Positions 27,554 to 54,188 of a DNA stretch of 64,000 nucleotides are shown here, piece by piece. A program made the translations under genes and the position numbers. The notes under the pieces are model-generated. The model was not told where the DNA came from, did not search any database, and saw only the letters and a program-made list of their open reading frames with translations. The stretch comes from Acutalibacteraceae bacterium (GTDB lineage Bacteria > Bacillota > Clostridia > Oscillospirales > Acutalibacteraceae). Location: assembly GCA_045599305.1 (NCBI GenBank), contig JAZRVU010000103.1, forward strand, positions 173-64,172, given 5' to 3'. Each line of letters opens with the position of its first letter. Position 1 is the stretch's first letter.

Positions 27554-27565
27554 GGCAATGACATC

Positions 27566-33161: not shown

Positions 33162-33169
33162 AAATTTCT

Positions 33170-33198: not shown

Positions 33199-33224
33199 AA
33201 AGAAAAAAACAGAGGTGTTTTTTT

Positions 33225-34301: not shown

Positions 34302-34310
34302 ATACATCAA

Positions 34311-34348
34311 AAAGCCCGTGCTTCCCCAAGGGGAGCACGGGCTTTTGC
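34311..34348. terminator. Bidirectional terminator
   Basis: AAAAAGCCCGTGCTTCCCC-aa-GGGGAGCACGGGCTTTTGCTTT. Confidence 0.75.
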
Positions 34349-34349
34349 T

Positions 34350-36418: not shown

Positions 36419-36433
36419 GGTCGCCGCCCCCTT

Positions 36434-37837: not shown

Positions 37838-37899
37838 GACATCCTCCGAATGTGCCCGCAGCGCGGGCGTTCTGTAATTATCATACCACAACGGGAAAC

Positions 37900-37946
37900 A
37901 AAAGTAAAGGAAAAGAGGTGCCGCACAGCCGTGCGGCACCTCTTTT
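37900..37946 (-). terminator. Terminator after the giant dockerin gene
   Basis: Perfect 15-bp stem AAAGAGGTGCCGCAC / GTGCGGCACCTCTTT with a 4-nt loop; T-rich tract on the reverse strand. Confidence 0.7.
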
Positions 37947-38008
37947 GAGAGACTGTTATGAATTACGCTTTCGGGAACGGCGGGGGGCGGATCCCCCTGC
38001 TGAGGAAA

Positions 38009-42745: not shown

Positions 42746-42773
42746 TCCTTTACAAGTTTTTCGGTTTGATTAC

Positions 42774-43029: not shown

Positions 43030-43866
43030 TTACAGTTTCTCCGCGCTCTGCCGCTGATCCACATATTGCGAAGGCGATACGCCCATATATTTTTTAAATG
43101 TTTTACTGAAATGATAAATATCGGTAAAACCGAGCAGCTGCGCGATCTCTCCGATCGAATATTCCTCGTCCGAAAAAAGCAGCTGCTTTGCTTTTTCGAT
43201 GCGGTAATGCTGACGGAACTGGACCGGGCTTTCTCCGCTGTATTCGGTAAAAAGGCGACGGAAATAGCAGACACTCACGCCGGCGCTTTCCGCGATCTCG
43301 GCAATGCTCAGATGGCTGCCCTCCTCCAACAGTTCGATCGCGGGCAGGATGAGGGCGTATTTCTTTTTGACGGTGCGGCGCTTTTGTTTCTGGCAAACGG
43401 CGGAAAGCAGCTTATAGATACATGCCTGCATCTCCGGGATGCAAACGACATTTTTCCCGAATTCCTCTGCCGCCCGTTCGATCTGCTCCGCCATGACCGA
43501 ATCGACATTTTTGATGCAGACGATCGGTTTATCCACGGGGATGATATCCTCCAGATCGTGGTCGTATAACTGGAAATGCATCACATAGGTATCCTCTTTG
43601 TCCAGATTCGTTTCATGAAACTCCACCACATATTCGGAGCCCTTCGGGGTGTAGATCAACTGGTTCCTTTCGATCTCAAGCACATTCCCCTCACGGTCAG
43701 TCACGGTCCCGCTGCAGTTTTTGAACCACAAAAGCGTGTGCGAGATCTTCGGATGCTTGAGGCTGTTATAAACGCTGCCTCTCGCGGCCCAATACTGCGG
43801 CTTCACAATGGGTTCCGACAAAAAGAAGTCGGTATTGTAAAGTTTTTCAAACGGTATCTTTTTCAC
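43030..43866 (-). CDS. AraC family transcriptional regulator, divergent from the carbohydrate locus
   Basis: C-terminal IAESAGVSVCYFRRLFTEYSGESPVQFRQHYRIEKAKQLL...IGEIAQLLGFTDIYHFSKTFKKYMGVSPSQY. Start moved to GTG 43866 (GGAAAGGATGG SD 7 nt upstream); the track ORF begins at 43938. Confidence 0.85.
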   Translation of the reverse strand: MKKIPFEKLYNTDFFLSEPIVKPQYWAARGSVYNSLKHPKISHTLLWFKNCSGTVTDREGNVLEIERNQLIYTPKGSEYVVEFHETNLDKEDTYVMHFQLYDHDLEDIIPVDKPIVCIKNVDSVMAEQIERAAEEFGKNVVCIPEMQACIYKLLSAVCQKQKRRTVKKKYALILPAIELLEEGSHLSIAEIAESAGVSVCYFRRLFTEYSGESPVQFRQHYRIEKAKQLLFSDEEYSIGEIAQLLGFTDIYHFSKTFKKYMGVSPSQYVDQRQSAEKL

Positions 43867-43992
43867 GGGGTGACCATCCTTTCCGTTTTTGGGCTCACAG
43901 TCCGCGCATAGTATAGCACACTTTTTCTCATTTTGCACGTTTTTTACAAATTTTTTTACTTTTTTAACATTTAAAAAAGCCGTCGGACGTGG

Positions 43993-43998
43993 TACAAT
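43993..43998 (+). promoter_or_regulatory. Extended -10 element (TGgTACAAT) of the locus promoter
   Basis: TGGTACAAT ~30 nt upstream of ATG 44028; weak -35 TTTAAA at 17-nt spacing; AT-rich upstream tract. Confidence 0.45.
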
Positions 43999-44027
43999 GC
44001 AGATAAATATATTGGGGAGGGTCCACT

Positions 44028-45434
44028 ATGCTCGATTACAAAGTGAAAATCGGTCTTGTTGCCATGCGCCGCAATGCCACCGATCGGCCGAAGGGCACTT
44101 TTCTGACTTGGTATTCCGCCGAACAGCGCGGAAAGAGATTCACCGAATACATAGAAAAGAATTTTACAAACGAAAATGTGACCTTTGTGGATAATAAAGG
44201 GATCGGCATTGCCGACCTGGTGTTTGACGATGCCACCGCCAAAGAGACGGTCGCCCGCTTCAAAGCCGAGGAGGTCGACGCGGTCTTCATCATCAACTGC
44301 AACTTCGGGAACGAGGAAGCCGCCGCCGACATTGCGAAAGCGCTCGGCAAGCCCGTCCTGCTGTGGGCGCCGCTCGACGATGAATATTATGTAGACGGTA
44401 TGCGTCCGACCGATTCGCAATGCGGCCTGTTCGGGGTGTCCCGCCAGATGCAGCGGTTCCATATCCCGTTTTCCCACCTGCCCTGCTGCCGTGTGGAAAG
44501 CGAAGAATTCAAATCGGGCTTCGATTCCTTCGTCCGTGTGGCCTGCATGGTCAAAAACTTTACGGGGATGCGCATCGGTCAGGTAGGTCTTCGCCCCGGC
44601 CCCTTCTTCTCGGTCATTTGGAACGAGGGCGAGCTGATGGAAAAATTCGGCGTCAAGATCATCCCGATCAACTTTGCCATGATCGAACAGCGCATGAACG
44701 CCGTTCTGGAGGAAAACCCCGCCGAAAAGCAGGAGATCGCCGATTACATTTTAGCCAACTACAAATTGGATGACCTGACCCCGCAATATGTGGACCGCAT
44801 GGCGGCGCTGACCGTGATGTATAAGCGGCTGTTTGCGGAATTCGATCTGGATGTCATTTCGGCGGAATGCTGGACGGCAACGCCGATCATGTTCAACGGT
44901 CTCGCGCCCTGCACGGTTTACGGGCTGCTCAACGACATGGGATATCTCGTGTCCTGCGAAAGCGATATGCATTGCGTCATGACCATGGCTCTGCTCAAAT
45001 GCGCCACGCTCGGCAAGGGCAAGCCGCTGTTCGGTGAATTCACCGTCCGTCACCCCGAAAACCGCAACGCCGAGCTGCTGTGGCACTGCGGGCCGTTCCC
45101 GCTTTCGCAGAAGGCGGCGAGCGGCACCGACAGCACGGCACGGCTCGTCAACCAGCGCTCGTGGTTCCGTGCCAAGGACGGCACCTACACCGTGGCCCGC
45201 ATGGATCAGGAAAGCGGCAACTATATGATCCTGCCGCTCATCTGCCGCACCACCGAAGGGCCGCAGACTCACGGCACCTATATCTGGGGTGAATTCGAAG
45301 ACCTGCAGGCGGTCGAAGACCGTTTGCTGGACGGCCCGTACATCCACCATTTCGTCGAGATGGAGGGCGACTGGCGAAAAGAGATCGCCGAATTCTGCAA
45401 ATACTTCCCCAACCTCAAAGTTGATAAAATGTAA
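44028..45434 (+). CDS. L-fucose/L-arabinose isomerase family protein (FucI-like)
   Basis: KIGLVAMRR...AEEVDAVFIINCNFGNEEAAADIAKALGKPVLLWA...SQCGLFG...ECW...SCESD...: architecture and length typical of the FucI/AraA-like superfamily. Confidence 0.8.
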   Translation: MLDYKVKIGLVAMRRNATDRPKGTFLTWYSAEQRGKRFTEYIEKNFTNENVTFVDNKGIGIADLVFDDATAKETVARFKAEEVDAVFIINCNFGNEEAAADIAKALGKPVLLWAPLDDEYYVDGMRPTDSQCGLFGVSRQMQRFHIPFSHLPCCRVESEEFKSGFDSFVRVACMVKNFTGMRIGQVGLRPGPFFSVIWNEGELMEKFGVKIIPINFAMIEQRMNAVLEENPAEKQEIADYILANYKLDDLTPQYVDRMAALTVMYKRLFAEFDLDVISAECWTATPIMFNGLAPCTVYGLLNDMGYLVSCESDMHCVMTMALLKCATLGKGKPLFGEFTVRHPENRNAELLWHCGPFPLSQKAASGTDSTARLVNQRSWFRAKDGTYTVARMDQESGNYMILPLICRTTEGPQTHGTYIWGEFEDLQAVEDRLLDGPYIHHFVEMEGDWRKEIAEFCKYFPNLKVDKM

Positions 45435-45449
45435 AAAGGAGAAAACACC

Positions 45450-46886
45450 ATGCAATACCAGATGAATGAATTCCTGTTTTCCATGATCCTCACCGAACTG
45501 GAAGATGCCGTCGGCAAGGACCACTGCTCGACCCGTGCCATCGACAAGGTGACGCACAGTGTCGACTATTACTGGCTGTCCCGTATGTGGGCAGACCGCG
45601 GCTGCCGGATGCCCGAGGCGGACTTTATCGTCTGCCCCGAAAATGCGCAGGAGGTCTCCAAGGTCCTCAAGATCGCCAACTATTACAAGATCCCCGTGAC
45701 CACCTGGGGCGCCGGCGGCGGTACACAGGGCGGTGCCATCCCGGTCTGCGGCGGCATCATCCTCGATACCAAGCGCATGAACAAGATCTATGAGGTCAAC
45801 ACCGACAGCATGTATATCGAATGCGGCACCGGTGCGATCTACAAGCATATCGAATGGGCGGCGAACGAGGTCGGCAAAGCGACCATGCACTATCCCTCTT
45901 CCCTGACCTGCTCGACTGTCGGCGGATTTTTGGCACACCGCGGTATCGGTGTCTGCTCGACTAAGTATGGCAAGATCGACGACATGGTGCTGCAGATGGA
46001 GGTCGTTCTGCCCAACGGCGATATCATCAACACGTCCTCCGCGCCGAAGCACGCCGCCGGCCCCGATCTGAACCAGATCTTCATCGGTTCCGAGGGCACT
46101 CTGGGCATCATCACCAAAGCGCAGATCCGCATCTTCGACCAGCCCGAAGAACGCCGCTTCCGCGGGTTCCTGTTCCAGGATATGACCGGCGCATTCAAGG
46201 CCTCCCGCGAACTGCTGCAGAAATTCAAGCCGTCTGTCATGCGGCTTTACGATGAAGCCGAAACCGCTTCGCTGATCAAAAAGATCGTCGGCGTCGAGCG
46301 CAAAGGCGCGTTCATGAACGTGGCTTACGAGGGTGTCAGGGAAATGGTCGAGGTCGAGGAGAAGATCCTGCTCGACACCTTCAAAAAGTACGGCGCCGAA
46401 GACCTCGGCGACGAGTACGGCAAAAAGTGGTGGGACGAGAAGATCACCTTCTTCTATCCGGGCCACATGATGGATATCCCGCAGATGTTCGGCACCATGG
46501 ACACCATCGCCCCCTACGACAAGATCGAGGAGATCTACTGGGCGATGAAGGAAGCCATCGAGACCAATTTCCCGCAGGCAAAATTCATTGCGCACTTCTC
46601 GCATTGGTATGAGTGGGGCGCCATGGTGTACGACCGCTTTATCGTGGAGGGCAAGGATGTGCCCGAAGACCCGGTGGAGGCACTGCGCCTGCATCAGGAG
46701 ATCTGGACCTGCGGTGTCCGCACCGCATTGGCACACGGCGGCGTGGTCAACGACCACCACGGTGTCGGCATCAAGCTCGGCCGCCTGATGAAGGAGCAGT
46801 ACGGCCCGGCCATGCAGGTCTTTGAGGGATTGAAGAAGCAGTTAGACCCGAACGGCATCATGAACCCCTTCAAACTCGGCCTTTAA
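45450..46886 (+). CDS. FAD-linked oxidase (GlcD / AGPS-like, FAD_binding_4 family)
   Basis: VCPENAQEVSKVLKIANYYKIPVTTWGAGGGTQGGAIPVCGGIILDTKRMNKI is the PCMH-type FAD-binding block; C-terminal GGVVNDHHGVG. Confidence 0.85.
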   Translation: MQYQMNEFLFSMILTELEDAVGKDHCSTRAIDKVTHSVDYYWLSRMWADRGCRMPEADFIVCPENAQEVSKVLKIANYYKIPVTTWGAGGGTQGGAIPVCGGIILDTKRMNKIYEVNTDSMYIECGTGAIYKHIEWAANEVGKATMHYPSSLTCSTVGGFLAHRGIGVCSTKYGKIDDMVLQMEVVLPNGDIINTSSAPKHAAGPDLNQIFIGSEGTLGIITKAQIRIFDQPEERRFRGFLFQDMTGAFKASRELLQKFKPSVMRLYDEAETASLIKKIVGVERKGAFMNVAYEGVREMVEVEEKILLDTFKKYGAEDLGDEYGKKWWDEKITFFYPGHMMDIPQMFGTMDTIAPYDKIEEIYWAMKEAIETNFPQAKFIAHFSHWYEWGAMVYDRFIVEGKDVPEDPVEALRLHQEIWTCGVRTALAHGGVVNDHHGVGIKLGRLMKEQYGPAMQVFEGLKKQLDPNGIMNPFKLGL

Positions 46887-46908
46887 TATTTTCGGGAGGT
46901 ATGCTATA

Positions 46909-47997
46909 ATGATTATGTCGGAAAAATCCAAGCAGCATGTCGATTCCTGCCGCTTTTGCTGGATGTGCCACCATATCTGTCCGATCGGCAATGCCACCGG
47001 CCAGGAGAGAAACACCGCCAGAGCCAGAGCGCTCGGCATTTCGCTCGTCAACCGCGAAGCCATCGAGCTGGACGAGATCATGGATAACATCTATGAATGT
47101 GCGACCTGCGGCGGCTGTGTAGAGATCTGCAACACCGGCTGGGATCCGGTCATGTTCACCAAGGAGACCCGTCTGCAGGCGGCGCTGGAGGGGAAACTTC
47201 CCGAATACATCCGGAATATGGTGGGCAACTGCCTTGAAACGGGCAATGCCTACGGCAAGACCGAACTGTGCGGCGACCTTTCTGCCGCCATCAAGGCACA
47301 TCAGGCCAAGACCGACACCCTGCTGGTACTGGGCGCGGATGCGCGGTTCATGCAGTGCCGGCAGGGGCTGAAAGCCATCGCCGTGCTGGAAAAAGCGGGC
47401 GTACCGTTCACCGTTCTGGCCGACGAACCGGCGACCGGCGCACAACTGGACTTTTTGATCGGTGCCGCCAACGAGACCAAGGAGCAGATGAGCCGGGCGG
47501 CCGATGTTTTCGGCGGCTACAAGACAGTCGTCCTCTATGACCCCGACGACGCGAAAGCCGTCAAACAGACCTACCGGGAATACGGCGTGGAACTGAACAC
47601 CTCCGCCGTGACCTATACCTCTTTCTTGGCTTCGCTTATCAAGAGCGGCGCCCTGAAAGCCGAAAACTCCGGTAAGAAGGTCGTTTTCCAGGATCCCTAT
47701 CAATTGGCGCGCGATCTGGAAGAGACCGAAGACGCCCGCGAGATCATCAAGGCATTCGCCGAACTGAACGAAATGCTGCTCAACCGCAGAGAGACCGTTT
47801 GGGCGGGCAATATCCTGATGGCGCAGTATCTCCCCTCCGTCATCCTGAAGGTCGCCGAACGCCGCATCTTCAATGCGGCCAGCATCGGTGCCGACACCAT
47901 CGTCACCGCCGGCATTTCGGAATATGCGGCGCTCAAAAACGTTGACCAGTCCGCCGTCCGGATCCTCTCTCTCGAAGACCTGATCCTCGGCGAATAA
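46909..47997 (+). CDS. (Fe-S)-binding protein, GlcF/GlpC-like, partner of the FAD-linked oxidase
   Basis: Two ferredoxin-type motifs, CRFCWMCHHICP and CATCGGCVEIC, followed by a CCG-like C-terminal half. Confidence 0.8.
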   Translation: MIMSEKSKQHVDSCRFCWMCHHICPIGNATGQERNTARARALGISLVNREAIELDEIMDNIYECATCGGCVEICNTGWDPVMFTKETRLQAALEGKLPEYIRNMVGNCLETGNAYGKTELCGDLSAAIKAHQAKTDTLLVLGADARFMQCRQGLKAIAVLEKAGVPFTVLADEPATGAQLDFLIGAANETKEQMSRAADVFGGYKTVVLYDPDDAKAVKQTYREYGVELNTSAVTYTSFLASLIKSGALKAENSGKKVVFQDPYQLARDLEETEDAREIIKAFAELNEMLLNRRETVWAGNILMAQYLPSVILKVAERRIFNAASIGADTIVTAGISEYAALKNVDQSAVRILSLEDLILGE

Positions 47998-48008
47998 AGG
48001 AGAACACC

Positions 48009-48848
48009 ATGTTAGTCAATTTGCAGTATGTGTTGGATCTGGCGGAAAAAGGCAATTTCTGCATTCCCGCATTCAATGTTTACAACATGGAGACCGCCAT
48101 GGGCGTCGTCAAGGCGGCGGAAGAAATGCACGCCCCCATCATCATGCAGGTCTATCCGCGCCTGATGAAGGAGGAAGCGGGATATTTCCTGGCGCCCGTT
48201 GTCAAGGCGGCGGCCCAAAAGGCCGGCGTGCCGATCTGTTTCCATCTGGATCACGGGCCGTCGGAATTGGAGACCACCCGTTCACTGCGCTGGGGCGCGA
48301 CCGGTATCATGCTCGACGGGTCGACCCTGCCGTTTGAAGAAAACATCGCCCTCACCAAGCGGGTCGTCGATACCTGCAGCTATGTCGGCGTCGGCGTCGA
48401 GGGCGAGCTCGGCCACGTCGGCACGACCAAGGACGATGAGATGGACGAATTCACCACCCCCGCCGATGCCAAACGGTTCGTCGAAGAGACCGGCGTGGCC
48501 TGCCTTGCCGTTGCGGTCGGTACCGCACACGGCAGATACAAAAAGCCGCCGAAGCTCGATATCGAACGCATCGAAGCCATCCGCAAGGCCACGAACAATA
48601 CCGCCCTCGTTCTGCACGGCGGCTCGGGCGTTCCGGATGAGGAGATCCGTCGGGCAGTCAAGGCGGGCATCCGCAAGATGAATTTTGCCACCGACATCTG
48701 CTATGCGTTCCTCGACTGCTGTCTGGAAGAACTGCAAAAGCCCGATCGGGCCATCGCGGTGGACAACTTCATGAAGAAGCCGATCGAAGCGGTCAAAAAC
48801 TTCTGCATCACAAGGATCTCCCTTGTCGGTGCCGACGGAAAGGCGTAA
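48009..48848 (+). CDS. Class II ketose-bisphosphate aldolase (FbaA/GatY/KbaY/IolJ family)
   Basis: IPAFNVYNMET...APIIMQV...HLDHG...GVEGELG...HGGSG...KMNFATD. Confidence 0.85.
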   Translation: MLVNLQYVLDLAEKGNFCIPAFNVYNMETAMGVVKAAEEMHAPIIMQVYPRLMKEEAGYFLAPVVKAAAQKAGVPICFHLDHGPSELETTRSLRWGATGIMLDGSTLPFEENIALTKRVVDTCSYVGVGVEGELGHVGTTKDDEMDEFTTPADAKRFVEETGVACLAVAVGTAHGRYKKPPKLDIERIEAIRKATNNTALVLHGGSGVPDEEIRRAVKAGIRKMNFATDICYAFLDCCLEELQKPDRAIAVDNFMKKPIEAVKNFCITRISLVGADGKA

Positions 48849-48852
48849 AGTT

Positions 48853-49764
48853 ATGAACGAGATCGTAGGCATCGGCGCGTGCGTGATGGATACGCTCATC
48901 ACCGTTCCGCATTATCCTGCCGAGGACACCAAACTGCGTGCGACCGGCAGCAAGCCCGCCGGAGGCGGCCCCGTGGCAACGGGGCTCGTTGCCGCAAGCA
49001 AGCTGGGATGCGCGGCCGGCTATATCGGGGTACTGTCGGAGGACGCCGGCGGAAAATTTCTGATCGAAGATTTCAAAAAGTACGGTGTTTCGACCGAAAA
49101 CGTCACGACCGTTTCGGGCAGGCGCTCGTTCACCTCGGTGATCTGGCTGAGCGCCGAAACGACCAGCCGCACCTGTGTGTTCGACAAGGGCGATCTGCCG
49201 CCGCTCACCCTCACCGAAGCCCAGAAAGAGGCGATCGCAAACGCGAGACTCTTGATGATCGACGGCAACGAAATGGATGCCGCCGAGGAGGCGTGCCAAA
49301 TCGCCCGCCAGTCGGGCACCAAGGTGCTTTACGATGCCGGCGGACTGTATGCCGGGGTGGAACGGCTGCTTCCCCTTGCCGACTTCCTGATCCCCTCCAA
49401 AGAGTTCGCGCTCGGCCACACCGGCTGCCGCACGGTGGAAAAGGCCGCCGAAAAGCTTTACCGGACGTATTCCCCCGAAGCGGTAGTGATCACCTGCGGG
49501 AAAGACGGCGGCGTGCTGTACGACGGGAAAGAACTGTACCGCTATCCGATCTATCCCGCCGAAGTGGTGGATTCCAACGGCTCGGGCGATGTGTTCCACG
49601 GCGCGTTTGCCGCAGGCTTCATCAAAGGCTTCGACACCAGAAAGTGCTGCCATTTTTCGAGCGCCGTTTCGGGGCTCAAATGCACGGGCATCGGTGCACG
49701 AGAAAGCGTCCCCGCATTTGATACGGTCAAAAAATATATGAAGGAGAATGGTTATGAACTTTAA
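48853..49764 (+). CDS. PfkB family sugar (phosphate) kinase
   Basis: N-terminal IVGIGACVMD, GGGPVATG, and C-terminal DSNGSGDVFHGAF anion-hole motif. Start moved to ATG 48853. Confidence 0.85.
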   Translation: MNEIVGIGACVMDTLITVPHYPAEDTKLRATGSKPAGGGPVATGLVAASKLGCAAGYIGVLSEDAGGKFLIEDFKKYGVSTENVTTVSGRRSFTSVIWLSAETTSRTCVFDKGDLPPLTLTEAQKEAIANARLLMIDGNEMDAAEEACQIARQSGTKVLYDAGGLYAGVERLLPLADFLIPSKEFALGHTGCRTVEKAAEKLYRTYSPEAVVITCGKDGGVLYDGKELYRYPIYPAEVVDSNGSGDVFHGAFAAGFIKGFDTRKCCHFSSAVSGLKCTGIGARESVPAFDTVKKYMKENGYEL

Positions 49765-50548
49765 AAAGGCATACGTTCCCGCCAAAGGGTACACGCCGAT
49801 CTGCAAGATCGGTGAATGCTCCTTGAAGAAACTGGAATTCGGTATCATCGAATTGGATGCCGGCGAAACGCAGGATTTTTACACCGAAGACAAAGAGGTG
49901 GCCTTTATCCTGCTGGAAGGCCACTGTGACGTTGCTTTTGACGGACAAAAGTGGAAAGACATCGGTAACCGTCAAACGGTTTTCGAGAATCGCAAAGCGG
50001 AATGCTTCTATATGCCGCGTGAGCAGGAACTGCTGATCATCGCCCGCGACCATCTCAAGATCGCGGTCTGCGGCACGCCGGTCGCGGAAAAGACCGAGCC
50101 GCAGGTGCTGCGTGAAGATCATGCCGTACTGAAATTGCTGGGCGAGCCGCCGTATCAGCGCGAAACGAGTTTTCTTGTCGACGGAAATTCCAACGCCAAG
50201 GTGCTCACTATCGGCGAGGCCTACTGCACCGAGGGCAACTGGGCGGGCTTCCCGCCGCACAAGCACGACGAGGACAACATGCCCAAGGAGTGCATTGCCG
50301 AAGAGATCTACTATTTCCTGTTCGAGCCCAAGCAGGGCTTCGGTGTTCAGTGCCTTTACACCTCGGACGGCACGGTGGATGAAGCCTACCGCGTCAAAAA
50401 CGATGAATTGGTGGAATTTCCGTACGGATATCACACCACCGTATCGACCCCCGGCTATCAGACCTATTTCCTGTGGCTGATGGCGGGTGATTATCAGGGC
50501 TTCAACCGCAGCAGTGACCCCGAACATGAATGGATAGAAAAACGGTGA
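49754..50548 (+). CDS. KduI/IolB family cupin isomerase, IolB-like (5-deoxy-glucuronate isomerase-type)
   Basis: GNWAGFPPHKHDEDNMPKECIAEEIYYF resembles the IolB metal/cupin block; ~264 aa. Confidence 0.7.
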   Translation: MNFKKAYVPAKGYTPICKIGECSLKKLEFGIIELDAGETQDFYTEDKEVAFILLEGHCDVAFDGQKWKDIGNRQTVFENRKAECFYMPREQELLIIARDHLKIAVCGTPVAEKTEPQVLREDHAVLKLLGEPPYQRETSFLVDGNSNAKVLTIGEAYCTEGNWAGFPPHKHDEDNMPKECIAEEIYYFLFEPKQGFGVQCLYTSDGTVDEAYRVKNDELVEFPYGYHTTVSTPGYQTYFLWLMAGDYQGFNRSSDPEHEWIEKR

Positions 50549-50552
50549 TCCT

Positions 50553-50597
50553 GCGGGGGGGAGATATGCCGCCCGCATATCTCCCCCGCATTTTTTA
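50553..50597 (+). terminator. Intrinsic terminator-like hairpin inside the locus
   Basis: GCGGGGG(GG)AGATATGC-cgccc-GCATATCTCCCCCGC followed by ATTTTTTAC, between the IolB-like and DUF4867-like genes. Confidence 0.6.
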
Positions 50598-50617
50598 CAT
50601 AAAGGAAGGAAAGAACG

Positions 50618-51271
50618 ATGACATTTCAGGAATTGAAAGAGAAAAATCCGCAGATCGCACTCTACCCTGTCGACAGCGAAGAATTCCGGTCTTTCGGCCG
50701 GGTCCTGCAGGGCTTTGACGCGGCGGAAATTTTAAAGACGGCCAAAACCATTCCGGCTCCCGACAGCGGTTCGGTCTATGTCGCACGGGAGCCGCGCTTT
50801 GAAGACCTCGCCATCGCCAAGGAGATCACCGACCGCTGCTTCGGCGAACTGCCGACCCAGATCGGCTACTGCTGGGGACACAACAGCTTTTTGAACGCCA
50901 CCGAATGGCACACGTCGAGCGAGATCAACATTGCCATCACCCCGCTCGTGCTGGTTTTGGGGCATCGTTGGGACATCCGGGACGGGTGGATCGACGCCGC
51001 CGATTTCAAGGCGTTTTACCTGCCCGCGGGCACCGTGGCGGAGGTGTATGCCACCTCGCTGCATTTCTGCCCCTGTGAGGTGGAGCCGAGTGGGTTCGGC
51101 TGTGTGGTCGCGCTCCCCGAAGGCACCAACACGCCCCTTTCCGGCGAAGCGGCAGACAAACTGCTGTTCTGCAAGAACAAGTGGCTTCTGGCGCACTGCG
51201 AAAACACGGGTCTGATCGCGCGCGGCGCCGTTGCGGGCATCCGCGGTGTCAATTACCGAATCAACTATTGA
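50618..51271 (+). CDS. DUF4867-like protein (ureidoglycolate-lyase/cupin-like fold suspected)
   Basis: ~217 aa; the N-terminus ...LKEKNPQIALYPVDSEEFRSFGRVL matches my recollection of DUF4867 proteins found in sugar operons. Recognition from memory only. Confidence 0.5.
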   Translation: MTFQELKEKNPQIALYPVDSEEFRSFGRVLQGFDAAEILKTAKTIPAPDSGSVYVAREPRFEDLAIAKEITDRCFGELPTQIGYCWGHNSFLNATEWHTSSEINIAITPLVLVLGHRWDIRDGWIDAADFKAFYLPAGTVAEVYATSLHFCPCEVEPSGFGCVVALPEGTNTPLSGEAADKLLFCKNKWLLAHCENTGLIARGAVAGIRGVNYRINY

Positions 51272-51281
51272 GGGTACTGCT

Positions 51282-52751
51282 ATGAAATATCTGCTCGGCA
51301 TCGACTTCGGCGGCGGTTCTTCCAAAGCCACCCTTCTGAACACCGAAGGAAACATCGCTGCGGAAAGCACGGTGGAATATCCGACCCTGCATCCGACCTC
51401 GGACGGCTGCGAACAGTCCCCAGAAGACTGGATCGCGGCTCTGTGCCGGAACTGCCGCACCCTGCTCAAAGACTCCGGCATTTCTGCCGGGGATATTCTG
51501 GCAGTCGCCGTGGATTCGGCGACCCATACGAGTCTGGTGTGCGACGAAAACTTCAGGCCGCTGCGCCGTGCCATCCACTGGACCGATTCCCGCTCCCGCA
51601 CGCAGGCGAACCGTTTGCTCAGCGCCGCGGGCGAGCAGATCTTTCAAAAGACATTTCACAAACCCGACACCATCTGGACTTTGCCGCAGCTTTTATGGCT
51701 CAAAGAAAACGAGCCGGAGGTTTTCGAAAAGATCCGGTACCTCTTTTTTGAAAAGGATTTCATTCGCTTTTTCCTGACCGGCGTTTTCTGCACCGATTAT
51801 ATCGAAGCCGAGGGCTCCATGCTCTTCGACTGCAACAAGATGGCGTGGGATACCGAACTGTGCGTACTTTGCGGCATCCGTCCCGACTGCCTGCCGCCGC
51901 TCAAGGCACCGACCGATATCATCGGCAGGGTCACGAAAGCCGCGGCAAAAGAAACGGGGCTCGAAGAGGGCACCCCCGTTATCTGCGGCACGACCGACAC
52001 CGTCATGGAGGTCTTTGCCTCGGGTGCCGTGCAGCCGCAGGACGTCACGGTCAAGCTGGCCACGGCCGGACGGATCTGTGTCATCACCGACCGCCCCTAC
52101 CCTAACCGTCATCTGGTCAACTATTCCCACATCGCGCCGGGACTCTGGTACCCCGGCACCGCCACCAAAGCGGCGGCATCGAGTTACCGCTGGTTCCGCG
52201 ACACCTTCGGCGGGACTTACCGGGAGCTGGACGACCTGACAAAGGATATCCCCATCGGCTGCGAGGGGCTCATCTACCACCCGTATCTCAACGGCGAACT
52301 GACCCCCTATGCCGATCCGATGCTTTGCGGCAGCTTCACCGGCATCCGTTCGACCCACACCAAAGGACATTTTGCCAAGGCCGTTATGGAGGGCGTGAGC
52401 CTCTCCCTTCTGGACAGCAAGATCCTGCTTGACAGCATCGGTATCCCCTATCAGCCGCAGGCGACCCTCATCGGCGGCGGCTCCAAGGGCAGAAAATGGG
52501 CACAGATCACGGCAGATATGCTGGATATGGCCCTGCAGATCACCGAAAACGCCGATTCCTCATTCGGCTCATGCATGCTGGCGGGCATTGCCGTCGGCGT
52601 TTTTGCCGATGCGAAGGATGCCGTCGCGAAATGTGTCAAACCGTTGGACACCATCCGCCCCGTTTCCCGGAACACCGAGGCATATCACAAGATCTTCGGT
52701 GAATACAAAAAGATACACGATGCTTTGGCACCGATTTATGATGCAAGATGA
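51282..52751 (+). CDS. FGGY family carbohydrate kinase (xylulokinase-like)
   Basis: MKYLLGIDFGGGSSKATLL, ...HWTDSR..., C-terminal GGGSKG. Start moved to ATG 51282. Confidence 0.85.
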   Translation: MKYLLGIDFGGGSSKATLLNTEGNIAAESTVEYPTLHPTSDGCEQSPEDWIAALCRNCRTLLKDSGISAGDILAVAVDSATHTSLVCDENFRPLRRAIHWTDSRSRTQANRLLSAAGEQIFQKTFHKPDTIWTLPQLLWLKENEPEVFEKIRYLFFEKDFIRFFLTGVFCTDYIEAEGSMLFDCNKMAWDTELCVLCGIRPDCLPPLKAPTDIIGRVTKAAAKETGLEEGTPVICGTTDTVMEVFASGAVQPQDVTVKLATAGRICVITDRPYPNRHLVNYSHIAPGLWYPGTATKAAASSYRWFRDTFGGTYRELDDLTKDIPIGCEGLIYHPYLNGELTPYADPMLCGSFTGIRSTHTKGHFAKAVMEGVSLSLLDSKILLDSIGIPYQPQATLIGGGSKGRKWAQITADMLDMALQITENADSSFGSCMLAGIAVGVFADAKDAVAKCVKPLDTIRPVSRNTEAYHKIFGEYKKIHDALAPIYDAR

Positions 52752-54133
52752 AAATAACCGTATGTATTCGGCAGGGACAAGACGGTGAGATCAATCCGTT
52801 TGACGCCTGTGCCTATGAAGAAGCCCTGAAAATCCATAATGCGGAGATCACCCTTTTAAGCATGGGTGTCCCCGCGACCAAAGATTTTTTGCTGAAGCTG
52901 ACCCGTCTGGGTGCCGCAAACGCCGTTTTGCTGACCGATCCCGCCTTTGCGGGAGCCGACACACTGGCGACCGCGTATACGCTTTCGCTGGCGATCAGAC
53001 GGCTTGAGCCGGATCTGGTCTTTTGCGGGCGGCAAACGCTGATCGGCGATACGGCACAGACCGCACCGATGCTGGCGGAAATGATCGGCTATCACCTCAT
53101 CACCAATGCCATGTCGGTCACCTGCGCGCAGGAGCGCATCTGCTGCGAGACCCGCGATGAGGGAACGGTCTGCGCCGATTTTCCCGCACTGGTCACCGTG
53201 GAGCGCATCAACACGCTGCGTCTGCCGTCCATTTTCTCCAGGATCGGGACGGTCGAGACCCTGACGGCAGCCGATCTCGGCGCCGATCTGTCCCGATGCG
53301 GCCTCGCCGGCTCCCCGACAAGGGTGCTTGAAAGCCGGGAAAACCAGTCCGGCAAACGGAAATGCACCTTTATCGAACTGCACGAGTTGCCCGGGATCAT
53401 TCGGCAAAGCGCCGCCCGGGCGGCAACGCGCTCCGATTTCGTTTCGGGCAGCAGCGCCAAACTGAAGCGGGTCTTCACGGTCGGCACCGCGCCGCTCGGA
53501 TTTGCCCAAACGGTCAGCGATGATATCACGGTGATCGAGCCGACCTCAAAAGAGGAGATCGCCGCCGTCATCCGCCAAGAGAGACCGAACGCGGTTTTGT
53601 GGGGCAGTGACAGCAAAAGCAAACGCACGGCCGCACAGGTCGCCGCCATGCTCGGGCTGGGGCTGTGTGCCGACTGCACCTCCCTTGAAACCGACGGCGA
53701 CACTCTTTTCATGGTGCGCCCTGCCCTTTCGGGCAGCGTGATCGCCAAGATCAAAAGTCTGACCCGCCCCGCCATGGCGACGGTGCGCACCACGCAGAAC
53801 GGATTCAAGGACATCACGGTTTGTGTCGGGTACGGCGCAAAAGAGTATGTAAATCAGGTGACCGCCTTTGCCGAAAAACTCGGTGCCGATCTGGCAGCGA
53901 CCCGCAAAGCGGTAGACTGCGATCTGATACCCTACGCCTGCCAGGTCGGGCTGACGGGAAAGACCGTTGCCCCGCCCGTCTATATCGCGGTCGGCGTTTC
54001 GGGGGCAGTCCATCACCTGGTCGGTATGCAGAGAGCCGGCACGGTGATCGCCGTGAACAGCGACAAAAACGCGCCGATCTTCGACTATGCCGATTTCGGA
54101 CTTGTTTTGTCCGATTTGAGTAAACTTCTCTGA
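52748..54133 (+). CDS. Fused, shortened electron transfer flavoprotein (EtfB-like N-terminal half + EtfA-like C-terminal half)
   Basis: Residues 1-~200: MKITVCIRQ...INPFDACAYEEAL...FAGADTLATAYTL...CGRQTLIGDTAQTAPMLAE...GSPTRV (EtfB). Residues ~245-461: ...AAQVAAMLGLGLCADCTSLE...RPALSGSVIA...ATVR... and VYIAVGVSGAVHHLVGMQRAGTVIAVNSDKNAPIFDYADFGLV (EtfA FAD domain). ATGA overlap with the kinase stop. Confidence 0.8.
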   Translation: MKITVCIRQGQDGEINPFDACAYEEALKIHNAEITLLSMGVPATKDFLLKLTRLGAANAVLLTDPAFAGADTLATAYTLSLAIRRLEPDLVFCGRQTLIGDTAQTAPMLAEMIGYHLITNAMSVTCAQERICCETRDEGTVCADFPALVTVERINTLRLPSIFSRIGTVETLTAADLGADLSRCGLAGSPTRVLESRENQSGKRKCTFIELHELPGIIRQSAARAATRSDFVSGSSAKLKRVFTVGTAPLGFAQTVSDDITVIEPTSKEEIAAVIRQERPNAVLWGSDSKSKRTAAQVAAMLGLGLCADCTSLETDGDTLFMVRPALSGSVIAKIKSLTRPAMATVRTTQNGFKDITVCVGYGAKEYVNQVTAFAEKLGADLAATRKAVDCDLIPYACQVGLTGKTVAPPVYIAVGVSGAVHHLVGMQRAGTVIAVNSDKNAPIFDYADFGLVLSDLSKLL

Positions 54134-54137: not shown

Positions 54138-54188
54138 AAAACGGGTCAAAAGCAGGGTTCCCCCTGCTTTTGACCCGTTTGCGTTTTT
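54138..54188. terminator. Bidirectional terminator closing the locus
   Basis: 19-bp stem AAACGGGTCAAAAGCAGGG / CCCTGCTTTTGACCCGTTT followed by GCGTTTTTAT. Confidence 0.8.

What the first reader, a model, noticed from the sequence alone, without database searches (positions are those of the whole stretch)
43030..54133. AraC-linked ten-gene carbohydrate locus with an enzyme combination I cannot map to a described pathway
Nine genes on one strand are flanked by a divergent AraC regulator and a very strong bidirectional terminator. In order they encode a FucI-like aldose-ketose isomerase, a GlcD/AGPS-like FAD oxidase, a GlcF/GlpC-like FeS protein, a class II ketose-bisphosphate aldolase, a PfkB kinase, an IolB-like cupin isomerase, a DUF4867-like protein, an FGGY kinase and a fused ETF. 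Two partial readings are possible. (a) The IolB/PfkB/class II aldolase trio mimics the lower myo-inositol branch (IolB-IolC-IolJ), but IolG, IolE, IolD and IolA are absent. (b) Isomerase + FGGY kinase + PfkB kinase + class II aldolase resembles a tagatose/ketose-1,6-bisphosphate route. Under this reading the flavin/FeS/ETF module would replace the usual NAD-dependent polyol or hydroxy-acid dehydrogenase. Neither reading uses all the genes, and no transporter is encoded. An ETF-coupled (possibly low-potential or confurcating) oxidation embedded in a sugar or polyol pathway of an anaerobe would be new biochemistry.
Basis: partly seen in the sequence, partly recalled or inferred. Interest (0 to 1): 0.7.

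Follow-up and report, generated by a model that had tools for sequence, protein, structure and literature searches.

The report
Conserved sugar operon with ETF-linked flavoenzyme
This is a real nine-gene sugar-breakdown operon, kept together in hundreds of uncultured gut Clostridia species, that joins ordinary isomerase, kinase and aldolase steps to an uncharacterised flavoenzyme wired to an electron-transfer flavoprotein; no described pathway accounts for it.

Summary
A divergent AraC regulator, nine co-oriented genes and a 19-bp-stem terminator lie at the stated coordinates.

The gene set is co-conserved. Relatives of the first gene occur in 432 species genomes, and the 80 loci kept are all gut Clostridia MAGs. 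Of 48 loci long enough to judge, 39 carry all seven core partners in order. A 'Bacilli' MAG carries the same set in a different order. Accidental juxtaposition is excluded.

I corrected several labels:
- The 'GlcD-like oxidase' is an AGPS/YgcU-type flavoprotein. It has the AGPS Arg, Tyr and His-His residues and lacks the D-lactate-dehydrogenase metal triad.
- The FeS protein has two 4Fe-4S motifs but no CCG domain.
- The isomerase is closest in fold to L-arabinose isomerase.
- The closest solved relative of the PfkB kinase is sulfofructose kinase.
- Most species use an RpiR regulator rather than AraC.

New context: YgcU-type flavoproteins sit beside an FGGY kinase in E. coli (ygc cluster), Ilyobacter, Enterococcus, Bacillus and alphaproteobacteria. 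They often come with ETF or a glycerol-3-phosphate antiterminator. None has been characterised.

Best reading, order of steps inferred: isomerase, ketose 1-kinase and aldolase give DHAP plus a short aldehyde. IolB-like isomerase, FGGY kinase and the flavoprotein/FeS/ETF complex then salvage that aldehyde. The substrate is unknown.

The parts
43030..43938 (-). AraC-family regulator, divergent from the operon. The codon model prefers a start giving 43030-43866.
   Evidence: HTH_18 and HTH_AraC hits. An orthologue sits upstream in 21 of 66 species loci, and an RpiR-type regulator takes its place in 38.
43939..44027 (.). 89-bp divergent intergenic region with sigma-70-like hexamers on the + strand
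   Evidence: Promoter-like sites at 43943-43970 and 43970-43998. These are consensus matches only.
44028..45434 (+). Aldose-ketose isomerase of the AraA/FucI/SftI superfamily; a compact family without a Pfam model
   Evidence: No Pfam hit, and SftI 92 bits against a cut-off of 700. The AF2 model (pTM 0.76) matches L-arabinose isomerases at TM 0.72 and FucI at 0.64. E311, E337, H353 and H440/H441 are invariant. Identity is 80-90% across 80 species loci. Only 153 representatives at 50% identity reach E<=1e-30 among 1.84 billion.
45450..46886 (+). AGPS/YgcU-type FAD protein, the presumed substrate-converting subunit of the redox module
   Evidence: FAD_binding_4 + FAD-oxidase_C. The best PDB sequence and fold matches are alkyl-DHAP synthases. 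It has R265 (MRLYD), SHWY and DHHGVG like AGPS, not the GH.GDGN.H / GEHG motifs of D-LDH. It is 30% identical to E. coli YgcU, 42% to a Mesorhizobium homologue, and 84-97% to operon orthologues.
46909..47997 (+). Soluble protein with two 4Fe-4S motifs and a Cys-poor C-terminal domain of about 250 aa
   Evidence: CRFCWMCHHICP and CATCGGCVEIC motifs are conserved in 13 orthologues. There is no CCG motif and no Pfam CCG hit. It is always adjacent to the FAD gene in both gene orders.
48009..48848 (+). Class II (metal-dependent) ketose-phosphate aldolase
   Evidence: PF01116 at 292 bits. The TIGR00167 subfamily scores 253, above its cut-off of 215.6, but no equivalog cut-off is reached. PDB matches: AgaY 183 bits, FBA 181, KbaY 179, YdjI 165.
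48853..49764 (+). Ribokinase-family (PfkB) sugar kinase, probably a ketose 1-kinase
   Evidence: PfkB domain. Best solved relative is sulfofructose kinase YihV at 110 bits, followed by ribokinases and ketohexokinases at 72-82, and an IolC-like protein at 60. It is 28% identical to YihV over the full length, and orthologues reach 36%. Orthologues are 54-76% identical.
49748..50548 (+). IolB-type cupin isomerase (aldehyde to hydroxy-ketone)
   Evidence: PF04962 at 231 bits. TIGR04378 scores 217.4, above its cut-off of 205. PDB 2qjv, an IolB-like protein, scores 113 bits. Orthologues fall into two groups, 75-87% and 36-42% identical.
50557..50587 (+). Internal terminator-like hairpin followed by a U-run, between the IolB-like and DUF4867 genes
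   Evidence: 13 pairs, -28.2 kcal/mol, z = -4.7. About half of the related loci have a structured spacer here. This is also where the mutarotase, DUF4867 or permease genes are inserted.
50618..51271 (+). DUF4867 metal-binding cupin (SftX/SqvB family), an accessory gene
   Evidence: PF16161 at 238 bits. It is 42.5% identical to B. megaterium SqvB (PDB 9GYY), and all four metal ligands are kept. It is present in 30 of 66 operon-carrying species loci. The family's function is unknown (PMC11968277).
51282..52751 (+). XylB-like FGGY kinase, the functional partner of the flavoprotein
   Evidence: FGGY_N and FGGY_C domains. The XylB model scores 357, below its cut-off of 380. It is 38% identical to the FGGY kinase next to the Mesorhizobium YgcU-type gene. 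The FGGY-flavoprotein adjacency appears in 9 unrelated taxa.
52748..54133 (+). Fused EtfB-EtfA electron-transfer flavoprotein (461 aa)
   Evidence: Two ETF stretches plus ETF_alpha. The N-terminal half matches EtfB and the C-terminal half matches EtfA of Bcd-Etf, CarDE and LctBC at 99-111 bits, and Paracoccus ETF at 96 bits. Its start overlaps the FGGY stop codon.
54139..54180 (.). Strong intrinsic terminator shared by convergent genes
   Evidence: 19-bp stem, -34.7 kcal/mol, z = -8.4. It has an A-run before and a U-run after, and lies between the ETF stop (54133) and the spoIVB stop (54191).

Best explanation
This is one catabolic operon for a free aldose-type sugar, probably released from plant or host glycans. 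It runs in two rounds around a single class II aldolase.

Round 1 works like fructolysis or (sulfo-)EMP:
1. A mutarotase, in some species, supplies the right anomer.
2. The AraA/SftI-type isomerase makes the ketose.
3. The ribokinase-family kinase phosphorylates it at C1.
4. The class II aldolase releases DHAP plus a short hydroxy-aldehyde.

Round 2 salvages that aldehyde:
1. The IolB-type cupin isomerises it to a hydroxy-ketone.
2. The XylB-like FGGY kinase makes a phosphate ester that resembles DHAP or glycerol-3-phosphate.
3. The AGPS/YgcU-type flavoprotein converts this ester into a glycolytic triose phosphate.

The flavoprotein is wired through the two-cluster FeS protein to the fused EtfBA. 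Electrons pass to or from NAD(H)/ferredoxin, in the manner of the lactate dehydrogenase-Etf complex. DUF4867 is a dispensable helper.

Shown: the gene identities, the conservation of the set, the FAD-FeS, aldolase-PfkB and FGGY-ETF pairings, the cross-phylum flavoprotein-FGGY link, and the AGPS-type active-site residues.

Inferred: the order of steps, which kinase serves which isomerase, the direction of electron flow, and the substrate.
For: Operon integrity:
- 39 of 48 species loci with enough sequence carry all seven core partners in order.
- A 'Bacilli' MAG carries the same set reshuffled into two blocks: FAD-FeS-IolB-mutarotase-FGGY-ETF and aldolase-PfkB-isomerase. These are the two modules proposed here.

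Round 1:
- The isomerase has an AraA-like fold and invariant Glu/Glu/His/His.
- The closest solved relatives of the PfkB kinase are ketose 1-kinases, YihV and ketohexokinase.
- The aldolase is a class II enzyme of the AgaY/FBA/YdjI type.
- A mutarotase is present in 19 loci.

Round 2:
- The IolB model is passed.
- YgcU-type flavoproteins are adjacent to FGGY kinases in E. coli, Mesorhizobium (42% and 38% identity to ours), Paracoccus, Labrenzia, B. thuringiensis, Enterococcus, Ilyobacter, Microbacterium and a 'Eubacteriales' MAG.
- A glycerol-3-phosphate-type antiterminator accompanies them in E. coli, Enterococcus and two MAG loci. This points to a phosphorylated glycerol-like ligand.
- The AGPS-type Arg/Tyr/His-His residues and the AGPS-like fold fit a DHAP-like substrate.
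- ETF is co-encoded in E. coli, Ilyobacter and here.
- The composition of flavoprotein, 4Fe-4S and ETF parallels LctBCD.
Against: - No enzyme was assayed and no substrate is identified.
- Published neighbourhoods pair DUF4867 with FucI-type isomerases and FGGY kinases, and FGGY-DUF4867 fusions exist. In iol operons IolB feeds a PfkB kinase. The alternative pairing (isomerase with FGGY, IolB-like with PfkB) is therefore equally natural.
- For a plain hexose the C3 product, glyceraldehyde, needs no flavoprotein.
- NagA/NagB-like and PMI-like insertions suggest a ketohexose-6-phosphate hub. This scheme does not use one.
- The similarity to YihV is only 28%.
- Whether the ETF carries a second, bifurcating FAD was not tested.
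Confidence: 0.4

Rival explanations
1. Tagatose (ketohexose-bisphosphate) hub. Galactose is isomerised to tagatose and phosphorylated. A hexitol such as galactitol is phosphorylated by the FGGY kinase and oxidised by the flavoprotein/ETF to a ketose phosphate. GalNAc-6-P enters through NagA/NagB-like enzymes. The PfkB kinase then makes the 1,6-bisphosphate, and the aldolase gives DHAP + GAP.
For: - NagA (TIGR00221 scores 257, above its cut-off of 225) and a NagB-like gene are inserted at two different points of the operon in 7-8 species. Elsewhere they sit next to GH123 beta-N-acetylgalactosaminidase.
- Isomerase-only loci lie beside GH2, GH4 alpha-galactosidase, GH3 and GH123.
- The isomerase has an AraA-like fold.
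- The best PDB match of the aldolase is AgaY/KbaY.
- RpiR regulators carry phosphosugar-binding SIS domains.
- The FGGY + flavoprotein pair resembles GlpK + GlpD.
Against: - The PfkB kinase is not of the LacC/FruK/Pfk-2 type. TIGR03168 gives only a 42-bit partial hit.
- The IolB-like enzyme has no role.
- NAD-dependent hexitol-phosphate dehydrogenases normally suffice.
- The aldolase scores about equally for FBA and tagatose-bisphosphate aldolase.
- The NagA/NagB-like genes are absent from most loci.
Confidence: 0.17
2. Complete breakdown of sulfoquinovose, or another 6-substituted 6-deoxyhexose. The upper steps follow sulfo-EMP: isomerase, kinase and class II aldolase give DHAP + sulfolactaldehyde. 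The IolB-like enzyme and the FGGY kinase turn that into a 1-sulfo analogue of DHAP. The AGPS-type flavoprotein removes the substituent by flavin-N5 chemistry and yields a second triose phosphate.
For: - The only NCBIfam hit of the isomerase is SftI.
- DUF4867 is 42.5% identical to the sulfoglycolytic SqvB.
- The best solved relative of the PfkB kinase is sulfofructose kinase.
- A class II aldolase is used in sulfo-EMP2.
- A mutarotase is present in 19 loci.
- The natural AGPS substrate is a 1-substituted DHAP (established knowledge).
- Oscillospiraceae and Acutalibacteraceae dominate rumen yihQ carriers (PMC13219744).
Against: - No sulfoquinovosidase, sulfolactaldehyde reductase, YihS/YihT homologue or sulfonate/sulfite exporter occurs in any of the roughly 85 loci.
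- The GH31 next to isomerase-only loci is not YihQ-type.
- The SftI score is 92 against a cut-off of 700.
- A substitution reaction would not need ETF.
- The glycosidases near isomerase-only loci act on galacto-configured sugars, not gluco-configured ones.
Confidence: 0.1
3. EMP-like hexuronate pathway. Galacturonate or glucuronate is isomerised to the keto-uronate and phosphorylated at C1. Cleavage gives DHAP + tartronate semialdehyde. The IolB-like enzyme makes hydroxypyruvate, a kinase makes 3-phosphohydroxypyruvate, and the flavoprotein/ETF reduces it to 3-phosphoglycerate, possibly with bifurcation.
For: - It uses all eight core proteins in one line.
- IolB/KduI enzymes, IolC/YdjH-type kinases and IolJ/YdjI-type aldolases act on carboxylate-bearing sugars (established knowledge; YdjI scores 165 bits).
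- Pectinase-type neighbours lie in this window (GH28 and a dockerin-bearing pectate-lyase-fold protein).
- An AEC-family anion permease is inserted in 4 species.
- kduI/kduD lie next to the Ilyobacter module.
Against: - The flavoprotein lacks the metal triad that 2-hydroxy-acid dehydrogenases of this fold use.
- No hydroxypyruvate kinase is known.
- The pectinase neighbours are not conserved in other species.
- The mutarotase and NagA/NagB-like insertions do not fit.
Confidence: 0.1
4. Truncated myo-inositol lower pathway. IolB, a PfkB kinase and a class II aldolase convert 5-deoxy-glucuronate to DHAP + malonate semialdehyde. The other genes supply 5-deoxy-glucuronate by an unknown route.
For: The IolB equivalog cut-off is passed (217, above 205). 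The aldolase is of the same Pfam family as IolJ, and the kinase of the same family as IolC.
Against: - The IolC model scores 93 against a cut-off of 300, and the IolC-like PDB entry ranks last.
- No iolG, iolE, iolD or iolA gene occurs in any locus.
- There is no enzyme for malonate semialdehyde.
- The isomerase, FGGY kinase and redox module remain unexplained.
Confidence: 0.05
5. Accidental juxtaposition of two or three unrelated operons.
For: A terminator-like hairpin lies inside the locus at 50557-50587. The isomerase also occurs alone in about 10 loci.
Against: - The same gene set is kept in 39 of 48 informative species loci and in a second gene order in another class.
- Reading frames overlap or abut.
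- The ETF and its flavoprotein lie on opposite sides of the hairpin.
Confidence: 0.03

Closest known systems
E. coli ygc cluster (ygcW-ygcU, ygcE, ygcQR, ygcNO, ygcP) and its relatives in Ilyobacter, Bacillus and Enterococcus
   Same: It has a YgcU/AGPS-type flavoprotein (30% identical over the full length), an FGGY kinase and a dedicated ETF. It is likewise uncharacterised.
   Different: Those clusters add an SDR, an MFS transporter and often a GlpP antiterminator, and in E. coli FixCX-like proteins. They lack the isomerases, the PfkB kinase and the aldolase. Here the ETF is fused, and a two-cluster FeS protein replaces FixCX.
Lactate dehydrogenase-Etf complex (LctBCD, Acetobacterium woodii, PDB 7qh2)
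   Same: It combines a dehydrogenase of the same FAD fold with EtfAB and a 4Fe-4S ferredoxin module. LctB, LctC and LctD are all among the PDB matches.
   Different: LctD is a metal-dependent D-2-hydroxy-acid dehydrogenase, and ours has AGPS-type residues instead. In LctBCD the FeS domain is fused to EtfA. Here it is a separate protein and EtfB-EtfA are fused. Confurcation is untested here.
Alkyl-dihydroxyacetone-phosphate synthase (AGPS)
   Same: It is the best sequence and fold match (TM 0.84). The catalytic Arg, Tyr and two of the three loop His residues are conserved.
   Different: AGPS is non-redox, needs no ETF, has an N-terminal extension of about 200 aa, and works on lipids. Ours sits in a sugar operon with ETF and FeS partners.
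Sulfo-EMP / sulfo-EMP2 sulfoglycolysis
   Same: The logic is mutarotase, isomerase, ketose 1-kinase and aldolase. A DUF4867 partner is present, and the best matches are SftI, YihV and SqvB.
   Different: There is no sulfoquinovosidase, sulfolactaldehyde reductase or dehydrogenase, or exporter. All similarities are remote (28-42% identity, or 92 bits against a cut-off of 700).
IolB-IolC-IolJ branch of myo-inositol catabolism, and YdjH/YdjI
   Same: An IolB-type isomerase, a PfkB kinase and a PF01116 aldolase are encoded side by side.
   Different: There are no upstream iol genes and no IolA. The kinase is not IolC-like.
Tagatose-6-phosphate / GalNAc (aga) pathway
   Same: It has a class II aldolase closest to AgaY/KbaY, a PfkB-family kinase, and NagA/NagB-like genes in some species.
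   Different: The kinase subfamily differs. The pathway has no LacAB or AgaS. Our operon has an extra isomerase, an extra kinase and a redox module.

Membership tests
AraA/FucI/SftI isomerase superfamily | Three-domain AraA/FucI fold | tested here: met
   The AF2 model (pLDDT 66, pTM 0.76) matches L-arabinose isomerases at TM 0.72 (E 1e-15) and FucI at TM 0.64. The C-terminal domain is modelled poorly.
AraA/FucI/SftI isomerase superfamily | Mn-binding and catalytic Glu, Glu, His, His | tested here: inconclusive
   E311, E337, H353 and H440/H441 are invariant in 11 orthologues. Their spacing matches E. coli AraA E306/E333/H350/H450, which I recall from memory. I made no residue-level superposition.
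Sulfoquinovose isomerase SftI (NF048012) | Curated whole-protein cut-off of 700 bits | tested here: not met
   92 bits. No Pfam PF02952 hit. An orthologue scores 17 bits against a cut-off of 29.
GlcD / D-lactate / D-2-hydroxy-acid dehydrogenases | FAD_binding_4 + FAD-oxidase_C architecture | tested here: met
   121 and 80 bits.
GlcD / D-lactate / D-2-hydroxy-acid dehydrogenases | His-His-Glu metal site (GH.GDGN.H and GEHG motifs) | tested here: not met
   The alignment to mouse D-LDH shows HFSHWYEWG and NDHHGVG at these positions. TIGR00387 scores 194 against a cut-off of 568.
AGPS | Catalytic Arg, Tyr and HHH loop | tested here: inconclusive
   The Arg (MRLYD) and Tyr (SHWY) are present. The loop reads DHH, so two of three His are kept. 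Other YgcU-type proteins have HHH.
AGPS | Non-redox acyl/alkyl exchange on acyl-DHAP | not testable with these tools
   This needs an enzyme assay. Co-encoded ETF and FeS proteins argue for net electron transfer.
YgcU-type flavoproteins (uncharacterised) | Full-length homology and adjacency to an FGGY kinase | tested here: met
   30% identity to YgcU (E 5e-58) and 42% to the Mesorhizobium homologue. An FGGY neighbour is present in every context examined.
GlcF/GlpC/HdrD-type FeS subunits | Two 4Fe-4S ferredoxin motifs | tested here: met
   CxxCxxCxxxCP and CxxCxxCxxxC are conserved.
GlcF/GlpC/HdrD-type FeS subunits | Cysteine-rich CCG domains | tested here: not met
   No PF02754 hit. The C-terminal 250 aa contain no conserved Cys.
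IolB (5-deoxy-glucuronate isomerase) | TIGR04378 equivalog cut-off | tested here: met
   217.4, above 205.
IolB (5-deoxy-glucuronate isomerase) | Context with iolG/E/D upstream and iolA downstream | tested here: not met
   None occurs in any locus.
IolC (5-dehydro-2-deoxygluconokinase) | TIGR04382 cut-off of 300 | tested here: not met
   93.5 bits. The IolC-like entry 2qcv scores 60 bits, below YihV at 110.
Class II ketose-bisphosphate aldolases | PF01116 and the TIGR00167 subfamily cut-off | tested here: met
   292 bits, and 253 above the cut-off of 215.6. No FBA- or tagatose-specific equivalog cut-off is reached.
Xylulokinase XylB | TIGR01312 cut-off of 380.25 | tested here: not met
   357.1 bits.
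Bifurcating ETF | EtfB domain, EtfA domain I and the FAD domain all present | tested here: met
   Two ETF stretches plus ETF_alpha. Matches cover EtfB and EtfA of 5ol2, 6fah, 7qh2 and 4kpu.
Bifurcating ETF | Second (bifurcating) FAD and NADH site instead of AMP | not tested
   Scores against bifurcating ETFs (99-111 bits) and canonical ETFs (82-96 bits) are too close to decide.
Sulfo-EMP sulfoglycolysis | Sulfoquinovosidase, sulfolactaldehyde reductase or dehydrogenase, and sulfonate exporter in the cluster | tested here: not met
   tblastn with YihQ, YihR, YihS, YihT and YihU finds nothing relevant in about 85 loci.

The most novel reading that the evidence does not exclude
The AGPS-type flavoprotein does new chemistry on a DHAP-like phosphate ester that the IolB-like isomerase and the FGGY kinase make from the aldolase's C3 product. 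There are two versions. In the first, it removes a substituent (for example the sulfonate of a sulfo-DHAP analogue) by flavin-N5 covalent catalysis. Sulfoquinovose, or another 6-substituted hexose, would then be converted wholly into triose phosphates inside one anaerobe. In the second, it is an electron-confurcating dehydrogenase for a glycerol-phosphate analogue. Either version would also assign a function to the E. coli ygc cluster family.
Probability: 0.12. Interest if true: 0.9.

Novelty: new variant of a known kind. Interest (0 to 1): 0.62.

Why it matters
Relatives of the first gene of the operon occur in 432 species-level genomes, and the 80 loci examined are all uncultured gut and rumen Clostridia. 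These groups dominate fibre-fed animals, and their carbon sources are poorly known.

The operon couples standard sugar-splitting steps to a flavoprotein family (YgcU/AGPS-type) that has no known function in any bacterium, E. coli included. Here that flavoprotein comes with a dedicated FeS/ETF wire.

Finding the substrate would:
- define a new catabolic route;
- give the first function for the ygc-type module;
- show whether flavin-based electron confurcation or bifurcation is used inside a carbohydrate pathway.

Tried and rejected
- A first codon-usage gene caller trained on pooled loci mis-called antisense ORFs. I replaced it with per-locus training.
- The PfkB column used a wrong-frame query (48879), so its 28-42% identities are invalid. 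The correct values are 54-76%.
- The exact-sequence look-up of the isomerase found nothing.
- phmmer and a profile search of the isomerase against PDB sequences found nothing. Only the fold search worked.
- I tested whether the 374-aa hypothetical protein next to the Mesorhizobium flavoprotein is a Cys-less homologue of the FeS protein. BLAST gave E 0.05 and hhalign gave probability 7.6%. This is unresolved.
- Literature searches for DUF4867, ygcU and ygc genes, AGPS + ETF, sulfolactaldehyde + ETF, and ETF + FGGY + aldolase found no functional description.
- PMC5626958, which I recalled as the ETF classification paper, is not held.
- Rfam found no riboswitch or leader RNA in the locus.
- I considered several chemical routes and dropped them as unsound or as leaving most genes idle. 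These were: hydroxylation of acetol phosphate from 6-deoxy sugars; a 5-ketofructose bisphosphate route; heptose or octose substrates; oxidative cleavage of the MurNAc lactyl ether; and opening of the 1,5-anhydrofructose ring.

Full report
**1. What is in the sequence**

The ORF list shows a minus-strand gene at 43030-43938 and nine plus-strand genes from 44028 to 54133. Their reading frames abut or overlap.

- an AraC-type HTH regulator;
- a 468-aa protein with no Pfam hit, whose only NCBIfam hit is sulfoquinovose isomerase SftI (92 bits, cut-off 700);
- a FAD_binding_4/FAD-oxidase_C protein;
- a Fer4_8 protein;
- a class II aldolase (PF01116, 292 bits);
- a PfkB kinase;
- a KduI/IolB cupin that passes the IolB equivalog cut-off (217, above 205);
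- DUF4867;
- an FGGY kinase just under the XylB cut-off (357, below 380);
- a 461-aa protein carrying EtfB-type and EtfA-type domains.

Orthologues and a per-locus codon model place the PfkB start at 48853 and the FGGY start at 51282.

The terminator at 54139-54180 has a 19-bp stem (-34.7 kcal/mol, z = -8.4). It lies between the ETF gene and a convergent spoIVB gene. A second, weaker terminator-like hairpin sits inside the locus at 50557-50587 (-28.2 kcal/mol).

The flanks hold pectinase-type and housekeeping genes and no transporter. Rfam finds no regulatory RNA.

**2. Is it one unit?**

A scan of one genome per species found 432 genomes with a relative of the isomerase. The 80 best are all uncultured gut or rumen Clostridia MAGs, labelled Oscillospiraceae, Acutalibacteraceae, Faecousia or 'Ruminococcus'.

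I called and clustered genes in these loci. Of 48 loci with at least 10.5 kb downstream of the isomerase, 39 carry the flavoprotein, FeS protein, aldolase, PfkB kinase, IolB-like protein, FGGY kinase and ETF in the same order. Six show none of these downstream, and in one of those six the block lies upstream instead.

Identities to the window proteins are high:
- isomerase 80-86% and flavoprotein 84-97%;
- PfkB kinase 54-76%.

The PfkB values printed came from a wrong-frame query and should be ignored.

A MAG labelled 'Bacilli' has the same gene set in another order: FAD-FeS-IolB-mutarotase-FGGY-ETF-aldolase-PfkB-isomerase. It sits next to an ABC sugar transporter. Keeping the set through a reshuffle is strong evidence of a functional unit.

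The regulator is not conserved. Of 66 species loci, 38 have a divergent RpiR (HTH_6 + SIS) regulator and 21 have AraC. DUF4867 is present in only 30 of the 66.

Other genes are inserted in some species:
- an aldose 1-epimerase (19 loci);
- NagA plus a remote NagB-like gene (7-8 loci, at two different positions);
- an AEC-family permease (4 loci);
- a PMI-like cupin (3 loci).

**3. The isomerase**

Sequence searches against PDB find nothing. An AlphaFold model (pLDDT 66, pTM 0.76, weak C-terminal domain) matches L-arabinose isomerases at TM 0.72 and L-fucose isomerases at TM 0.64.

E311, E337, H353 and H440/H441 are invariant. Their spacing matches the metal and catalytic residues of E. coli AraA, which I recall from memory. 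I did not check this by superposition.

The family is small. Among 1.84 billion representatives at 50% identity, 153 reach E<=1e-30.

In about ten loci the isomerase occurs without the operon. There it lies beside GH2, GH31, a GH4 alpha-galactosidase, a GH3 whose best hit is an L-arabinopyranosidase, GH123 beta-N-acetylgalactosaminidase, and M20 deacylases. This hints at a galacto-configured substrate.

**4. The flavoprotein is AGPS/YgcU-type**

Its best PDB sequence matches are alkyl-DHAP synthases, ahead of D-lactate dehydrogenase, glycolate oxidase and LctD.

The printed alignments are informative. Where D-LDH has its metal and catalytic motifs (GH.GDGN.H and GEHG), the window protein has HFSHWYEWG and NDHHGVG. 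These match AGPS (SHTY/TQTY and HHHG). The AGPS arginine (IRL.D) is present as MRLYD.

A model built on 19 homologues (pLDDT 76) has mammalian AGPS as its top 29 fold matches (TM 0.84). D-LDH follows at TM 0.80.

The protein is 30% identical over its whole length to E. coli YgcU. It is 42% identical to a Mesorhizobium plasmid protein. Arg, the H.SH motif, Tyr and the HH pair are invariant across nine such proteins.

It is therefore unlikely to be a 2-hydroxy-acid oxidase. The conserved residues suit a carbonyl- or hydroxyl-bearing phosphate or anionic substrate of the DHAP or glycerol-phosphate kind. This last point is inference.

**5. A recurring flavoprotein-kinase module**

In every context I opened, the YgcU-type gene lies next to an FGGY kinase:

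| Organism | Neighbours of the flavoprotein gene |
|---|---|
| E. coli | ygcW (SDR), ygcU, ygcS, ygcR/ygcQ (ETF), ygcP (G3P-type antiterminator), ygcN/ygcO, yqcE, ygcE (FGGY) |
| Mesorhizobium | FGGY (38% identical to ours), flavoprotein, hypothetical protein, LacI, ABC transporter |
| Paracoccus | GlpD-like, flavoprotein, FGGY, aldehyde dehydrogenase |
| Labrenzia | LacI, flavoprotein, FGGY, ABC transporter, glycerol dehydrogenase, SDR |
| B. thuringiensis | oxidoreductase, flavoprotein, sugar kinase, MFS |
| Enterococcus gilvus | glycerol dehydrogenase, G3P antiterminator, FGGY, flavoprotein |
| Ilyobacter | SDR, flavoprotein, FGGY, MFS, EtfB, EtfA, with kduI/kduD nearby |
| Microbacterium | flavoprotein, hypothetical protein, glpK, glpD |
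| 'Eubacteriales' MAG and an unassigned metagenome contig | SDR or Fe-ADH, flavoprotein, FGGY, G3P antiterminator |

I found no paper that assigns a function to any of these.

I infer that the FGGY kinase and the flavoprotein act in sequence on a glycerol-like compound, and that ETF is the redox partner.

**6. The other proteins**

FeS protein. It has two classical 4Fe-4S motifs. Its C-terminal domain of about 250 aa has no conserved cysteine, so there is no CCG domain.

ETF. Its N-terminal half aligns with EtfB and its C-terminal part with EtfA of Bcd-Etf, CarDE, LctBC and the Acidaminococcus ETF (99-111 bits). It also aligns with canonical ETFs (82-96 bits). I could not decide whether it is a bifurcating type. 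Fused ETFs, including a bifurcating one, have been described (PMC12042025).

PfkB kinase. Its closest solved relative is sulfofructose kinase YihV (110 bits; 28% identity, up to 36% in orthologues). Ribokinases and ketohexokinases follow. An IolC-like protein ranks last, and LacC/FruK-type kinases do not appear.

Aldolase. It scores about equally against AgaY/KbaY, class II FBA and YdjI.

DUF4867. It is 42.5% identical to B. megaterium SqvB, with all four metal ligands kept. The function of this family is unknown despite a crystal structure. It is known to neighbour FucI-type isomerases and FGGY kinases (PMC11968277).

**7. Most likely mechanism**

Three lines of evidence suggest two modules:
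- the conserved pairings FAD-FeS, aldolase-PfkB and FGGY-ETF in both gene orders;
- the block structure of the reshuffled operon;
- the cross-phylum kinase-flavoprotein link (section 5).

The first module is isomerase, ketose 1-kinase and class II aldolase. It splits an aldose into DHAP and a short hydroxy-aldehyde, as in fructolysis or sulfo-EMP.

The second module is the IolB-type isomerase, the FGGY kinase and the flavoprotein/FeS/ETF complex. It turns that aldehyde into a second triose phosphate, with a redox step passed through ETF. The architecture of that step parallels lactate dehydrogenase-Etf.

I give this 0.4. The step order, the kinase assignments, the electron direction and the substrate are all inferred. 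The opposite kinase pairing is plausible from DUF4867 neighbourhoods and from iol operons. A plain hexose would not need the flavoprotein.

**8. Rivals**

- Tagatose or ketohexose-bisphosphate hub fed by galactose, a hexitol and GalNAc (0.17). The NagA/NagB-like insertions, the GH123, GH2 and GH4 neighbours, and the AraA-like fold support it. The kinase subfamily and the idle IolB-like gene weaken it.
- Complete sulfoquinovose-type pathway with AGPS-like removal of the C6 substituent (0.10). The SftI, YihV and SqvB resemblances support it. The absence of any sulfoquinovosidase, sulfolactaldehyde enzyme or exporter in about 85 loci weakens it.
- EMP-like hexuronate route ending in reduction of phosphohydroxypyruvate (0.10). 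It uses all genes, but it conflicts with the missing hydroxy-acid metal site.
- Truncated inositol branch (0.05).
- Chance juxtaposition (0.03). The comparative data contradict it.

**9. Verdict**

The locus is a conserved, uncharacterised catabolic operon.

It is a new variant of a known kind: a sugar operon built from known enzyme families. Its redox module belongs to a widespread flavoprotein family with no assigned function. The ETF coupling is not unique to this locus, and fused ETFs are already known.

Interest is 0.62. The operon is abundant in gut Clostridia, experimentally tractable, and offers a route to a function for the E. coli ygc cluster. No surprising chemistry has yet been demonstrated.

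Noticed in passing
window 37958-42769 (+) and 38009-42745 (-): Two nearly full-length ORFs overlap on opposite strands. The codon model and Pfam favour the minus-strand gene (1578 aa, pectate-lyase/RHGA-like fold plus a C-terminal type I dockerin). This implies a cellulosome-type organism. The 1603-aa plus-strand ORF has no Pfam hit and is probably a shadow ORF.
   Followed up: partly
window 31543-37939: A GH28, a GDSL-type esterase, an AlgX/DHHW SGNH protein and an MBOAT acyltransferase are clustered here. The set looks like a polysaccharide O-acetylation or pectin-related group. These neighbours are not conserved next to the operon in other species.
   Followed up: partly
window 50557-50587 and the same spacer in related loci: A terminator-like hairpin follows the IolB-like gene. 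About half of the related loci have a structured spacer of 50-280 nt at this point. It is also the site where the mutarotase, DUF4867 or AEC permease genes are inserted.
   Followed up: partly
L069 3170-19434: A different cluster surrounds the same isomerase family. It holds a TIM-like protein, an FGGY kinase, two MFS transporters, a second SftI-like isomerase, a fructose-6-phosphate aldolase/transaldolase, the isomerase, an M20 deacylase, a GH3, an AraC regulator, a NagB-like gene, NagA and GH123. The layout is reminiscent of the sulfo-transaldolase pathway.
   Followed up: partly
L088 (Paracoccus jeotgali plasmid) 6166-15568: A YgcU-type flavoprotein sits with a GlpD-like dehydrogenase, an FGGY kinase, an aldehyde dehydrogenase, an Fe-alcohol dehydrogenase, enoyl-CoA hydratases and a CoA-binding protein. 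This would fit catabolism of a glyceryl ether with AGPS-like ether cleavage. This is speculation.
   Followed up: no
L098 3983-8916: Next to the reshuffled operon lie an ABC sugar transporter with a 509-aa binding protein and three proteins (112, 762 and 307 aa) with no Pfam family. These could be unrecognised glycan-processing enzymes and might reveal the substrate.
   Followed up: partly
P0183, P0158: Flavoproteins 83-84% identical to the window protein are labelled as coming from a Planctomycetia MAG and a Bacilli MAG. This means either horizontal spread of the operon or mis-binned or mis-classified MAGs. Only the Bacilli locus was inspected.
   Followed up: partly
window 22788-31501: This stretch holds an MGH1/GH63-like glycosidase, a deoC-pnp-deoB-like nucleoside catabolic trio, MTHFR, a short protein with a methionine-synthase activation domain, and a MetH lacking that domain. 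Methionine synthase therefore appears to be split.
   Followed up: no
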